From Sarcophilus harrisii (taxonomy: Eukaryota), in the NCBI GenBank assembly GCA_048593225.1, contig CM109176.1, forward strand, positions 477,499,429 through 477,563,428: a stretch of 64,000 bases of DNA. Direction: 5' to 3'. Below, piece after piece: positions 58,780 to 60,362 of this stretch. Positions within the stretch are counted from its first letter, which is position 1. The number at the start of each line of letters is the position of its first letter. A model generated the notes under the pieces. The model ran no database searches and had not been told where the DNA came from. It saw nothing but the letters and a program-made list of their open reading frames with translations. A program made the translations under genes and the position numbers.

Positions 58780-58920
58780 AAGTCAACCTCTCCGTTCCTC
58801 TCCCCACCCCCATCTCTTTTCCCCACCCCCATCTCTTTTCCCCACCCCCATCTCCTCTCCCCACCCCCATCTCCTCTCCCCACCCCCATCTCCTCTCCCC
58901 ACCCCCACCTCCCCAAACGG
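58780..58920. repeat. Minisatellite with a ~19-20 bp unit (CTCTCCCCACCCCCATCTC), about 6-7 copies
   Basis: Direct tandem copies of ccccacccccatctcttttc / ccccacccccatctcctctc are visible. Confidence 0.85.
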
Positions 58921-58972
58921 TAGCAGCGGAAGAAGCTCCTCAACTCAGGCAAGGACCAGTAACGTCTCTGTC

Positions 58973-59095
58973 TCTCTCTCTCTCTCTCTCTCTCTCTCTC
59001 TCTCTCTCTCTCTCTCTCTCTCTCTCTCTCTCTCTCTCTCTCTCTCTCTCTCTCTCTCTCTCTCTCTCTCTCTCTCTCTCTCTCTCTCTCTCTCA
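58973..59095. repeat. (CT)n microsatellite, about 61 units, abutting the CpG island
   Basis: Uninterrupted ctctct... run. The 149-aa minus-strand ORF rich in 'RERERE' is an artefact of this tract. Confidence 0.95.
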
Positions 59096-59110
59096 GGGGT
59101 GTCTCCTGGG

Positions 59111-59130
59111 GATTGTAGTTCAATAGTCGG
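59111..59130 (-). promoter_or_regulatory. ZNF143 (SBS-like) motif, minus orientation
   Basis: Minus strand reads ACTACAATCCCCAGGAGACA. It is oriented outward, opposite to the plus-strand motif about 45 bp away. This divergent pair is typical of bidirectional promoters. Confidence 0.5.
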
Positions 59131-59171
59131 CCAGAGGAGCCCTGTGCTGAGGACACCAAAGGCACAGTTGG

Positions 59172-59190
59172 ACTACATTTCCCAGATTCC
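59172..59190 (+). promoter_or_regulatory. ZNF143 (SBS / ACTACAATTCCCAGCA-like) motif, plus orientation
   Basis: ACTACATTTCCCAGATTCC closely resembles the ZNF143/THAP11 composite motif common at CpG-island promoters. Confidence 0.5.
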
Positions 59191-59461
59191 TCGGAGTCCC
59201 GGTAGGTGGGGCTCCCGGAGGAGTTGGAGGTAGGGCTCCGGCGGAGGCCGTGGCTCGTTTGTAAATGGAGAGGGAGGCGCTAGAAGTGGCGGTGGCTGTG
59301 GCGCGATTTGGAAAAGGGATTGAACAGCTAGAGCGCCGGACGCCGGTAACTTGGGGCTGCAGGTGGGGGATCCGGGGGAGCCGGAGGCAGAAACAGTTCT
59401 GTCCTCGGGAACCTGAACCCGGCGACGTTTTGCTGCCGCGGAGCCCCGCTCTGCGGGAGGG

Positions 59462-59580
59462 TTAGGGGCTGGGGGGGTGGGGGTGGGAGTGGGGGTGGGG
59501 GTGGGGGTGGGAGTGGGGGTGGGGGTGGGGGTGGGGGTGGGGGTGGGGGTGGGAGTGGGGGTGGGGGTGGTGGAGAAGAT
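59462..59580. repeat. (GGGGGT/GGGAGT)n G-rich hexamer array, about 19 units, with G-quadruplex potential
   Basis: gggggtgggggtgggagtgggggtggg... The 'HPHPHP' minus-strand ORF is an artefact of this array. Confidence 0.9.
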
Positions 59581-60316
59581 CTCTCGCTCCGTGGCTGTCG
59601 GCTTCGGGGCCTAAGGATGTTGGGGGCACTCTTCCCGCCGACCCCCCTCCCCCCATTTGTTTCAACTATCTTTGAATACTTTTAGCTCTTATTTGAGGGT
59701 TTGGCTAATGGGAGTTTAGAAAGAGTTTCTGCTTTTAAGTCTCCTCAGGGACCTTGTTCCCTTAAAAGTGACTCTGGGTCATTTTCTGTCCTTTGATGCC
59801 GATGGTCGTGGAACTGTTGTGATCGGTTTCAAGGCGTTTAAATCGTTAAGAAAGAAAAGAAAAAAAATAATTACTATTTTTCTAAACCAGCAACTTAATT
59901 TCTCTTAGATTTGGAAGATGTGATGTTGACAGCAGTTTGCCAGACTGGCGAGGGGATACTACAATCACTGACTTTTTTTTTTAAAGGTTGCTTTCTCCCC
60001 CAGGGCTATGTATATATAAATAGTCAGCCGTGTCTGTATCTATACTGAGAACGTCATGATGTATTTGTGACATGCATGTATTTAAAAGTTCATTTTAACT
60101 GGGGCATCTGTGAGCTATGTGATAGTTTATTATTCCTGGTGCCAGATACAGACCTTAATTTTAGTTGGTTGGGGCTTTCGTGCCGTCCTTTTTTTTGGGA
60201 TGGTGATGGTAATAATGCTCCTTTGTCTTTTGTAAACTTATTTCCAGTCCCTGAATCCTGAATCTTCACAATGCCAAATTGGTCATTTTTTCAGGTAAAA
60301 TAGAAAGTTGCTCCAT

Positions 60317-60362
60317 TCCCCCCCCCCCCCGCCCCCCTCACCCCCCCCCTCACCCCCCCCTT
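60317..60362. repeat. Poly-C / (C8-13 N) homopolymer tract
   Basis: cccccccccccccgcccccctcacccccccctcacccccccc. Confidence 0.9.

What the first reader, a model, noticed from the sequence alone, without database searches (positions are those of the whole stretch)
58780..60362. Strand-asymmetric low-complexity DNA flanks the promoter: a minisatellite and (CT)61 upstream, a (GGGGGT)n G4 array and a poly-C tract downstream
Four features surround the CpG island. A 19-20-bp minisatellite (CCCCACCCCCATCTC..., 6-7 units) and an uninterrupted (CT)~61 lie immediately 5' of it. A ~19-unit GGGGGT/GGGAGT array lies immediately 3'. A C8-13 homopolymer cluster lies 700 bp further on. Long homopurine/homopyrimidine mirror tracts can form H-DNA (triplex) and G-quadruplex structures. 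They are also hypervariable. Placed at a bidirectional promoter, they could affect promoter architecture, nucleosome exclusion or replication fragility. The apparently long ORFs 58716..59165 and 59462..59665 are artefacts of these repeats.
Basis: seen in the sequence. Interest (0 to 1): 0.5.

Follow-up and report, generated by a model that had tools for sequence, protein, structure and literature searches.

The report
Repeat arrays flanking CENPJ/PARP4 divergent promoter
Four real low-complexity DNA tracts surround the only CpG island in this window, which sits between the CENPJ and PARP4 genes; the three nearest put G-rich or purine-rich DNA on the non-template strand of each gene, a striking but ordinary example of known promoter-flank features.

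Summary
All four tracts exist at the stated coordinates:
- a 19-bp minisatellite, 58796-58912 (6.2 copies);
- a pure (TC)62, 58971-59094;
- a GGGGGT/GGGAGT array, 59473-59570 (16 hexamers, or 19 G-runs counting three just upstream);
- a C13/C6/C9/C8 cluster, 60318-60360.

The first three are the three highest-scoring tandem arrays in the 64 kb. They bracket the window's only CpG island.

The island lies between CENPJ (+ strand, ATG exon at 62951-63394) and PARP4 (- strand, ATG exon at 44638-44506). Its core holds two inverted ACTACANNYCCCAG motifs (ZNF143/THAP11 type), with 0.00 expected by chance. GC skew changes sign exactly there.

For a divergent promoter, "upstream/downstream" is therefore misleading. 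Each proximal array probably lies downstream of one gene's start site, with G or purine on the non-template strand. The G-array and the minisatellite are the most RNA:DNA-hybrid-favouring 100-nt stretches in the window for rightward and leftward transcription respectively.

This matches known kinds: GC-skewed, R-loop-prone CpG-island promoters, G-rich first-intron elements, and H-DNA-forming (GA)n promoter microsatellites. The poly-C cluster has the opposite polarity.

Start sites, structure formation in vivo, length polymorphism and conservation could not be tested. A neutral slippage origin remains a strong rival. Interest is modest.

The parts
58796..58912 (-). 19-bp minisatellite with six full units. 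It is C-rich on + (TCCTCTCCCCACCCCCATC) and G-rich on - (GATGGGGGTGGGGAGAGGA). There are two G-runs per unit on the strand that is non-template for leftward transcription.
   Evidence: TRF score 199, 6.2 copies, 94%. Register printed. G4Hunter region 58784-58924, mean 1.91. It is the most hybrid-favouring 100 nt in the window for leftward transcription, -51.3 kcal/mol. G4-aware folding gives three RNA G4s, -89.3 vs -18.4 kcal/mol.
58971..59094 (-). Uninterrupted (TC)62 on +, which is (GA)62 on -. It is a perfect homopurine/homopyrimidine mirror repeat and begins 11 nt beyond the left-facing ACTACA...CCCAG motif.
   Evidence: TRF score 253, the highest in the window. Mirror length 123 nt against 43 nt for the next. 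Fifth most hybrid-favouring stretch for leftward transcription, -26.1 kcal/mol per 100 nt.
59106..59119 (-). ACTACAATCCCCAG: an ACTACA plus SBS-type (ZNF143/THAP11 'M4') core-promoter motif facing left.
   Evidence: The pattern ACTACANNYCCCAG occurs twice in 64 kb, with 0.00 expected from 100 shuffles. Motif identity is taken from PMC3082894 and PMC5006282.
59172..59185 (+). ACTACATTTCCCAG: the second motif of the same type, facing right, 52 bp from the first.
59100..59650 (.). The only CpG island in the window (GC about 0.66, CpG o/e about 0.65, against window values of 0.34 and 0.13). GC skew changes sign at about 59100-59200.
59473..59570 (+). GGGGGT/GGGAGT hexamer array of 16 units. The G4 motif spans 59455-59567 with 19 G-runs. 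G is on the strand that is non-template for rightward (CENPJ) transcription. The array lies 110-270 nt beyond the candidate exon-1 donors.
   Evidence: TRF score 175. Units listed. G4Hunter region 59448-59583, mean 2.49, max 3.36. It is the most hybrid-favouring 100 nt in the window for rightward transcription, -63.6 kcal/mol. Four tandem RNA G4s, -208.8 vs -39.8 kcal/mol. Candidate donors at 59201, 59229 and 59362.
60318..60360 (+). C13-G-C6-TCA-C9-TCA-C8 cluster, about 1 kb into the presumed CENPJ intron 1. C is on the non-template strand, the opposite polarity to the G-array.
   Evidence: G4Hunter -2.04. It favours a hybrid only for leftward transcription. No similar copy elsewhere in the window.
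62951..63394 (+). CENPJ exon carrying the start codon (ATG at 62966). Acceptor ...gcttcag|ACT, donor CAG|gtaaaa. It shows that CENPJ runs rightward from the island and that its exon 1 is non-coding.
   Evidence: Hits that their sources name 'Centromere protein J', E 4.7e-41, 57% identity. Sequence read. Donor score.
44506..44638 (-). PARP4 exon carrying the start codon (ATG at 44631-44629). A polypyrimidine tract plus CAG acceptor lies 7 nt upstream, so PARP4 exon 1 is a separate non-coding exon further right. Further PARP4 exons run down to 1303.
   Evidence: Collinear tblastn exon map. Concatenated exons match PDB 'Protein mono-ADP-ribosyltransferase PARP4' at E 2.5e-244. Pfam PARP domain. 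Sequence read.

Best explanation
The tracts are tandem arrays, generated by slippage or unequal exchange, that sit in the flanks of a divergent CpG-island promoter shared by CENPJ (rightward) and PARP4 (leftward). Those flanks are very probably transcribed.

The three proximal arrays are extreme versions of the GC/purine skew normally found just downstream of CpG-island start sites. Each puts G-runs or purines on the non-template strand of the gene that would transcribe it.

Inferred mechanism:
1. As RNA polymerase II leaves the core in either direction, the G-rich or purine-rich nascent RNA re-anneals to the C-rich or pyrimidine-rich template and forms an R-loop.
2. The displaced strand folds into tandem G-quadruplexes at the minisatellite and the G-array.
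3. At (GA)62, an H-DNA triplex or 'H-loop' forms, helped by the negative supercoiling that builds up between diverging polymerases.
4. The expected consequences are an open, nucleosome-poor, methylation-resistant promoter and a length-dependent brake on early elongation. The G-runs may also help define the exon-1 splice donors.

The exact copy numbers are probably not under selection and are probably polymorphic. The poly-C cluster is a separate intronic low-complexity tract of the opposite polarity and is not part of this logic.

Shown here: the tracts, the identity and orientation of the two genes, the paired core motifs, the skew switch, and the thermodynamic and G4/H-DNA potentials. Inferred: the start sites and exon-1 boundaries, structure formation in vivo, and any regulatory effect.
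For: - Gene context. CENPJ is on + and PARP4 on -. In both genes the ATG exon is preceded by an acceptor, so both need an upstream non-coding exon 1. There is only one CpG island in 64 kb.
- Core. Two inverted ACTACANNYCCCAG motifs lie 52 bp apart, with 0.00 expected. This motif class is over-represented in bidirectional promoters and sufficient for bidirectional activity (PMC3082894).
- Skew. GC skew is -0.65 to -1.0 over 58750-59100, crosses zero at about 59100-59200, and is +0.17 to +0.92 over 59150-59600.
- Hybrid stability. The G-array is the most RNA:DNA-hybrid-favouring 100 nt of the window for rightward transcription (-63.6 kcal/mol; window mean +1.9, sd 8.6). The minisatellite is the most favouring for leftward transcription (-51.3). 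(GA)62 ranks fifth.
- G-runs. There are 9-11 G-runs per 100 nt on the relevant non-template strands, against a window mean of 0.7.
- Splice donors. All good + strand donors precede the G-array by 110-270 nt. The best - strand donor, GAG|GTGGGG at 58909, is at the first bases of the minisatellite.
- Literature. Co-oriented GC skew at CpG-island promoters predisposes to R-loops (PMC3787257). [quoted passage not shown] Negative supercoiling spreads up to about 1.5 kb upstream of start sites, and homopurine RNA forms stronger hybrids (PMC11667243). (GA)n length modulates the Fli1 promoter (PMC3046520).
Against: - No transcript, CAGE, DRIP, G4 or footprinting data were available. Start sites, exon-1 boundaries and structure formation are therefore all inferred.
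- PARP4's use of this island is inferred. It rests on the island being the only one within the 14.5 kb upstream of the ATG exon.
- In human promoters, AG/CT and AGGG/CCCT microsatellites show no strand preference (686 vs 719, p = 0.39; PMC3566118). The orientation of (CT)62 may be coincidence.
- Three of three proximal tracts in the 'right' orientation has p = 0.125 by coin toss. Three of four with the poly-C cluster included has p of about 0.31.
- The near-perfect purity of the arrays indicates recent expansion rather than long-term conservation.
- No orthologous promoter could be retrieved.
- Published effects of promoter CT/GA tracts go in both directions.
- The nearest-neighbour parameters and the splice-donor matrix were recalled from memory.
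Confidence: 0.45

Rival explanations
1. Neutral by-product. The arrays are functionally inert microsatellites and minisatellites that arose by replication slippage and unequal exchange. They arose from a promoter flank that was already G/C-skewed, open and hypomethylated, and they persist only because they are tolerated in non-coding exon 1 and intron 1 sequence. Their polarity reflects the composition of the seed sequence, not selection for any structure.
For: - The arrays are very pure ((TC)62 has no interruption; the others are 93-94% identical). This is typical of young, fast-mutating repeats.
- The minisatellite shows blocks of variant units (units 2-3 against 1 and 4-6), as expected from tandem duplication.
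- Microsatellites are generally abundant around start sites, and AG/CT shows no strand preference there (PMC3566118).
- The window holds other long simple repeats unrelated to promoters, such as (CT)22(TA)22 at 21717-21805.
- The poly-C cluster does not fit the polarity scheme.
Against: - The three strongest arrays of 64 kb all lie within 775 bp around the only CpG island (about 7e-6 under uniform placement).
- They are the window-wide extremes for hybrid stability in the matching transcription directions.
- Sequences of this type have measurable effects on transcription in other genes (PMC3046520, PMC11667243). Complete inertness at 11 nt from a core motif would be somewhat surprising.
- A mutational hotspot at the promoter would also explain the clustering, so this rival is not excluded.
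Confidence: 0.35
2. Duplex-DNA binding-site arrays. The arrays act as homotypic clusters of binding sites for factors that recognise G-rich or GA-rich double-stranded DNA. The candidates are Sp/KLF on GT/CACCC boxes, MAZ or VEZF1-type factors on G-strings, and vertebrate GAGA-binding factors on (GA)n. On this view they recruit activators or keep the island unmethylated without any non-B structure.
For: - 15 of the 18 GGGGTGGGG/CCCCACCCC boxes in the window lie in the two arrays.
- The island has no canonical GGGCGG box at all, so these are its only Sp/KLF-type sites.
- Eddy and Maizels attribute much of the upstream G-richness of promoters to SP1 motifs in duplex DNA (PMC2275096).
Against: - No binding data are available, and motif matches inside a low-complexity array carry little information.
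- The factor assignments are recalled from general knowledge and were not tested.
Confidence: 0.1
3. Splicing elements. (GA)62 acts as a purine-rich exonic enhancer in a PARP4 5'-UTR exon. The G-run arrays act as intronic splicing enhancers that define the weak GC-rich exon-1 donors of both genes.
For: - The best - strand donor (58909, GAG|GTGGGG) lies between (GA)62 and the minisatellite.
- The + strand donors lie 110-270 nt before the G-array.
- G-triplets at the 5' ends of introns are associated with splicing regulation (discussed in PMC2275096).
Against: - Exon boundaries are predictions from a rough matrix.
- A few G-triplets suffice for the known splicing effect, so arrays of 12-19 runs are not explained.
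- There are no RNA data.
Confidence: 0.05
4. Assembly artefact. The copy numbers, or the tracts themselves, result from collapsed or mis-extended repeats in the assembly.
For: Nothing positive. Simple repeats of 100-130 bp are hard for short-read assemblers.
Against: - Each tract is flanked by unique sequence and the window has no N.
- The arrays carry internal variant units in a coherent pattern.
- Four different motifs would each have to be wrong.
Confidence: 0.03

Closest known systems
GC-skewed ('Class I') CpG-island promoters prone to co-transcriptional R-loops (Ginno et al. 2013, PMC3787257)
   Same: A CpG island with a sharp rise of positive GC skew co-oriented with transcription. Here this holds in both directions from a sign change in the core. 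G-rich RNA gives a strongly favoured RNA:DNA hybrid.
   Different: Here the skew is carried mostly by three tandem arrays and reaches +/-0.9-1.0, rather than by diffuse composition. The island is small (about 0.5 kb). R-loops were not measured.
[quoted passage not shown]
   Same: Many G-runs (9-11 per 100 nt) lie on the non-template strand a few hundred nt from the presumed start site, just beyond candidate exon-1 donors, on both sides.
   Different: GrIn1 elements are defined statistically, peak in the first 100 nt of the intron and are conserved down to frogs. Here the + side array starts 110-270 nt after the candidate donors, is a near-perfect hexamer repeat, and could not be assessed for conservation.
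Promoter (GA)n/(CT)n microsatellites that form H-DNA and tune expression, such as Fli1 (PMC3046520) and smooth-muscle MLCK (cited in PMC3566118)
   Same: A homopurine/homopyrimidine dinucleotide mirror repeat right next to the core promoter. In the known cases it is polymorphic and its length affects promoter activity.
   Different: At 62 units this tract is longer than the Fli1 allele named in that paper's abstract (GA26). It abuts a ZNF143-type motif of a bidirectional promoter. No polymorphism or activity data exist here. The known cases differ in the direction of the effect.
ZNF143/THAP11 (SBS, 'M4', ACTACANNTCCC) bidirectional promoters, such as BUB1B with two SBS (PMC3082894, PMC5006282)
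   Same: Two ACTACA-plus-SBS motifs sit in the core of a head-to-head gene pair.
   Different: This concerns the core, not the repeats. Binding was not tested, and only the first 14 nt of the motif were matched.

Membership tests
Bidirectional (head-to-head) CpG-island promoter | Two genes on opposite strands diverging from one intergenic region | tested here: met
   CENPJ exons are on + to the right. PARP4 exons are on - to the left.
Bidirectional (head-to-head) CpG-island promoter | Start sites less than 1 kb apart on opposite strands (PMC3082894) | not testable with these tools
   No CAGE or RNA data. Both genes need an upstream non-coding exon 1, and only one CpG island exists. PARP4's ATG exon is 14.5 kb away, so its use of this island is inferred.
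Bidirectional (head-to-head) CpG-island promoter | Presence of a motif over-represented in bidirectional promoters (ACTACANNTCCC / SBS) | tested here: met
   Two inverted copies at 59106-59119(-) and 59172-59185(+), with 0.00 expected.
GC-skewed R-loop-prone CGI promoter (Ginno Class I) | A CpG island overlapping a GC-skew peak co-oriented with transcription within -500 to +1500 of the start site | tested here: met
   The island is shown. Skew is +0.17 to +0.92 rightward over 59150-59600 and -0.65 to -1.0 (positive for leftward transcription) over 58750-59100. The result is conditional on the inferred start sites. SkewR itself was not run.
GC-skewed R-loop-prone CGI promoter (Ginno Class I) | R-loop formation detected (DRIP) | not testable with these tools
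   Only a nearest-neighbour hybrid-versus-duplex calculation was possible.
GrIn1 first-intron G-rich element | At least 4 G-runs (of 3 or more G) per 100 nt on the non-template strand | tested here: met
   9 and 11 per 100 nt on + at 59400-59599, and 11 per 100 nt on - at 58800-58899. The window mean is 0.7.
GrIn1 first-intron G-rich element | Located at the 5' end of intron 1 (peak in the first 100 nt after the donor) | tested here: inconclusive
   Candidate donors at 59201, 59229 and 59362 put the G-array 110-270 nt into the intron. The candidate donor at 58909 puts the minisatellite at the very start of the intron. The donors are predictions only.
GrIn1 first-intron G-rich element | Conservation of the G-rich element across vertebrates | not testable with these tools
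   The orthologous contigs retrieved were 4.5 kb or shorter and did not reach a promoter. A metagenome scan gave 0 hits.
H-DNA-forming motif | Homopurine/homopyrimidine tract with mirror symmetry | tested here: met
   (TC)62 is a 124-nt pure pyrimidine tract with a mirror length of 123 nt, the longest in the window (the next is 43 nt).
H-DNA-forming motif | Triplex formation under negative supercoiling (S1 or chemical probing) | not testable with these tools
   Needs an experiment.
G-quadruplex-forming sequence | Canonical G3+N1-7 x4 motif and G4Hunter score of 1.5 or more | tested here: met
   59455-59567 on + matches the regular expression. The minisatellite on - passes G4Hunter (mean 1.91) and folds into G4s, although its 8-9-nt inter-unit loops exceed the N1-7 regular expression. 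60318-60360 on - also matches.
G-quadruplex-forming sequence | Quadruplex formation observed (G4-seq, G4 ChIP, biophysics) | not testable with these tools
   Needs an experiment.
Hypervariable micro-/minisatellite | Head-to-tail array of high purity and many copies | tested here: met
   TRF results.
Hypervariable micro-/minisatellite | Length polymorphism among individuals | not testable with these tools
   No second copy of the locus could be found.

The most novel reading that the evidence does not exclude
The two G-run arrays share the core GGGGGTGGGG in inverted orientation, roughly symmetric about the paired core motifs. Together with (GA)62 they could be a selected, mirror-symmetric 'bookend' architecture of this divergent promoter. 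On that reading, repeat copy number sets how much R-loop, G4 or H-DNA forms on each side, and so tunes the relative output of CENPJ and PARP4. The distal tracts of opposite polarity (T13G9 at 58041-58058 and the poly-C cluster) would mark the outer limits of the R-loop-prone zone.
Probability: 0.07. Interest if true: 0.55.

Novelty: new member of a known kind. Interest (0 to 1): 0.25.

Why it matters
If the arrays do form R-loops, G4s or H-DNA in the orientations inferred, this locus would be a compact natural test case. It has a head-to-head pair of a centriole-duplication gene and a vault-associated ADP-ribosyltransferase gene. Each flank of the pair carries a different, probably polymorphic, structure-prone repeat. 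Copy-number variants could then be used to ask whether such repeats set the balance of divergent transcription. As it stands, the locus is a clear but unsurprising illustration of known promoter-flank sequence biases. Its main practical value is as a candidate polymorphic marker and as a caution against calling the repeat-derived ORFs.

Tried and rejected
1. Orthologous promoters. CENPJ-exon hits were looked up in public assemblies. All contigs were 4.5 kb or shorter and carried at most about 2 kb upstream of exon 2, so none reached a promoter. The window's own ORF is not on record.
2. A metagenome scan for the 23-nt core sequence gave 0 hits. No independent copy of the locus was found, so polymorphism and assembly correctness could not be checked.
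3. RNA genes. There were no Rfam matches at gathering threshold and no tRNAs in the window.
4. Transposon origin of the poly-C cluster. Self-BLAST finds no related copy in the window. By contrast, the G-rich stretch at 57504-57646 is an interspersed repeat with five other copies.
5. Cruciform or long-range pairing between the minisatellite and the G-array. The arms are only 70-77% complementary over 28-47 nt and lie about 600 nt apart. The resemblance is a shared 10-12-nt core, not a foldable inverted repeat.
6. Coding potential of the two ORFs was rejected.
7. PRDM9-type 13-mer CCNCCNTNNCCNC. It matches three times in the minisatellite, but all 10 + strand matches in the window lie in C-rich sequence, mostly low-complexity, and the factor is species-specific. 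It is not informative.
8. Literature on a CENPJ/PARP4 shared promoter. Nothing was found.
9. The source species was not determined. The low GC (34%), very low CpG o/e (0.13) and L1-like ORFs suggest a non-eutherian mammal from general knowledge, but this was not tested.
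Full report
**Observation**

Reading 58000-61500 and running Tandem Repeats Finder confirms all four tracts.
- A 19-bp minisatellite at 58796-58912: 6.2 copies, 94% matches, unit TCCTCTCCCCACCCCCATC. Units 2-3 carry TCTTTT.
- An uninterrupted (TC)62 at 58971-59094.
- A hexamer array at 59473-59570 with 12 GGGGGT, 3 GGGAGT and 1 GGGGGGGT.
- C13, C6, C9 and C8 at 60318-60360, 748 bp beyond the G-array.

The two long ORFs exist on the - strand. 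They are repeat artefacts. They translate as (RE)n and (HP)n and give only sub-threshold low-complexity Pfam matches. None of the units can encode a stop in any frame.

The window is 34% GC with CpG o/e 0.13 and has one CpG island, at about 59100-59650. The three proximal arrays are the three top-scoring tandem arrays of the whole 64 kb (253, 199, 175; the next is 132). Uniform placement would put all three within 600 bp of the island centre with probability of about 7e-6.

**Gene context**

The + strand ORF at 62906-63433 contains MPTSSELNSGQNF.... It hits proteins that their sources name centromere protein J (E 4.7e-41, 57% identity). The exon runs from the acceptor at 62950|62951 to the donor CAG|gtaaaa at 63394, with the ATG at 62966.

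On the - strand, a human PARP4 sequence recalled from memory served only as a lead. It located a collinear series of exons from 44637 down to 1303. The window-derived peptides then matched PDB chains named 'Protein mono-ADP-ribosyltransferase PARP4' at E 2.5e-244, against about 1e-15 for PARP1-3. One exon also matched Pfam PARP.

PARP4's ATG (44631) lies 7 nt after a polypyrimidine tract and CAG acceptor. Both genes therefore need an upstream non-coding exon 1, and the only CpG island lies between them. That PARP4 uses this island, 14.5 kb from its ATG exon, is an inference. No transcript data were available.

**The core**

The pattern ACTACANNYCCCAG occurs exactly twice in the window, with 0.00 expected from shuffles. 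The copies are at 59106-59119 on - and 59172-59185 on +, inverted and 52 bp apart.

This is the ACTACA-plus-SBS ('M4', ACTACANNTCCC) motif bound by ZNF143/THAP11. It is over-represented in bidirectional promoters and was shown to be sufficient for bidirectional activity (PMC3082894, PMC5006282). On the - strand, (GA)62 begins 11 nt after the left-facing motif.

**Strand asymmetry re-read**

GC skew is -0.65 to -1.0 over 58750-59100, crosses zero at about 59100-59200 (where the two motifs sit), and is +0.17 to +0.92 over 59150-59600. For a divergent promoter this means that the non-template strand is G-rich or purine-rich in both directions.

The two largest G4Hunter regions in the window are the minisatellite (58784-58924, G on -) and the G-array (59448-59583, G on +).

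I compared RNA:DNA hybrid stability with DNA duplex stability by nearest-neighbour calculation, using parameters recalled from Sugimoto 1995 and SantaLucia 1998.
- The G-array is the most hybrid-favouring 100 nt of all 64 kb for rightward transcription: -63.6 kcal/mol, against a window mean of +1.9 and sd of 8.6.
- The minisatellite is the most hybrid-favouring for leftward transcription (-51.3).
- (GA)62 ranks fifth (-26.1).
- The poly-C cluster favours a hybrid only for leftward transcription. That is the wrong polarity for CENPJ, in whose presumed intron 1 it lies.

G-runs reach 9-11 per 100 nt on the relevant strands, against a window mean of 0.7. G4-aware folding predicts four tandem RNA quadruplexes on the CENPJ side (-208.8 vs -39.8 kcal/mol) and three on the PARP4 side (-89.3 vs -18.4). 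(TC)62 is a 123-nt homopurine/homopyrimidine mirror repeat, against 43 nt for the next longest.

A rough donor matrix places all good + strand donors (59201, 59229, 59362) 110-270 nt before the G-array. It places the best - strand donor (58909, GAG|GTGGGG) at the first bases of the minisatellite. If these are right, (GA)62 would lie in a PARP4 5'-UTR exon, and both G-run arrays would lie near the 5' ends of first introns.

**Comparison with what is known**

- Ginno et al. showed that positive GC skew co-oriented with transcription at CpG-island promoters predisposes to R-loops. They treated bidirectional promoters as a source of apparent 'reverse' skew (PMC3787257).
- The H-DNA review documents three relevant points: the mirror-repeat requirement, negative supercoiling spreading up to about 1.5 kb upstream of start sites, and the strand bias due to stronger homopurine-RNA hybrids (PMC11667243).
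- (GA)n length inversely modulates Fli1 promoter activity (PMC3046520).
- Microsatellites are abundant at human start sites (PMC3566118).

Each tract type, and the polarity of the proximal three, therefore belongs to a known kind.

**Caveats and rivals**

- Sawaya et al. found no strand preference for AG/CT or AGGG/CCCT microsatellites near human start sites. The orientation of (CT)62 may be coincidental. Simple orientation counts (3 of 3 proximal, p = 0.125; 3 of 4 overall, p of about 0.31) are not compelling alone.
- The purity of the arrays points to recent expansion. A neutral slippage origin from an already skewed, open promoter flank is a strong rival (0.35).
- The arrays also contain 15 of the window's 18 GT/CACCC boxes, while the island has no GGGCGG box. 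A duplex binding-site role is therefore possible (0.1).
- A splicing-enhancer role (0.05) and an assembly artefact (0.03) are minor rivals.
- The minisatellite and the G-array share an inverted 10-12-nt core, but they are only 70-77% complementary over about 600 nt of spacing. That rules out a foldable inverted repeat.

**What could not be done**

No orthologous promoter or second copy of the locus could be retrieved. The literature search found nothing on a shared CENPJ/PARP4 promoter. Conservation, length polymorphism, start sites and in vivo structures remain untested. The source species was not determined.

**Verdict**

It is better stated as extreme, repeat-borne GC/purine skew on the non-template strands of two divergent transcription units, with the poly-C cluster standing apart. 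This is a new example of known kinds of element rather than a new kind. Interest is modest (0.25).

Noticed in passing
window 58041-58071: A T13G9 tract followed by A6 and G5 lies about 1.08 kb left of the skew switch. The poly-C cluster lies about 1.21 kb to the right. Both put C on the non-template strand of the gene that would transcribe them, opposite to the proximal arrays. The locus therefore has a roughly mirror-symmetric composition. With only two pairs this may be chance.
   Followed up: partly
window 59265-59465: An ATG inside the presumed non-coding CENPJ exon 1 opens a 66-aa ORF (MEREALEVAVAVARFGKG...). It has no Pfam match. If transcribed, it would be an upstream ATG or uORF ahead of the CENPJ start codon in exon 2.
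   Followed up: partly
window 57504-57646: A G-rich interspersed repeat with five other copies in the window (near 53450, 56123, 2630, 14222 and 49086, at 73-84% identity). Several other G4 or C-rich motifs in the window (about 14190, 49050, 56100, 57513) fall in or next to these copies, so they are transposon-borne rather than promoter-related.
   Followed up: partly
window 12049-12363, 27992-28384, 52337-53197, 20857-21096(-): Fragments of LINE-1-like ORF2 (recurrent ...NWKLNGCPSVGEWLNKLWYM..EYYC.IRNDQQD...DLHELML...) lie scattered in PARP4 introns. Together with 34% GC and CpG o/e 0.13 they suggest a non-eutherian mammalian genome. The species was not determined.
   Followed up: no
window 21717-21805: A compound perfect microsatellite, (CT)22 immediately followed by (TA)22, sits inside a PARP4 intron. 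It is the second-longest H-DNA-type mirror repeat in the window.
   Followed up: no
window 58845-58895 and 60332-60356: The degenerate 13-mer CCNCCNTNNCCNC (recalled as the human PRDM9 hotspot motif) matches three times in the minisatellite and twice in the poly-C cluster. All 10 + strand matches in the window lie in C-rich sequence, mostly low-complexity, so it is probably uninformative.
   Followed up: partly
window 58300-58600: A weak CpG-enriched patch (o/e 0.8-0.9 at 45% GC) lies about 300 bp left of the minisatellite. It contains a moderate - strand donor candidate at 58479 (GAG|GTAAAC). It could be part of a PARP4 exon 1 or intron 1 shore, or an alternative first exon.
   Followed up: no
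window 20226-20377: A degenerate 36-bp tandem repeat (4.5 copies, 69% matches, TRF score 132) is the strongest array outside the promoter. It overlaps two opposite-strand ORFs with repetitive translations (PAPTGSD...).
   Followed up: no
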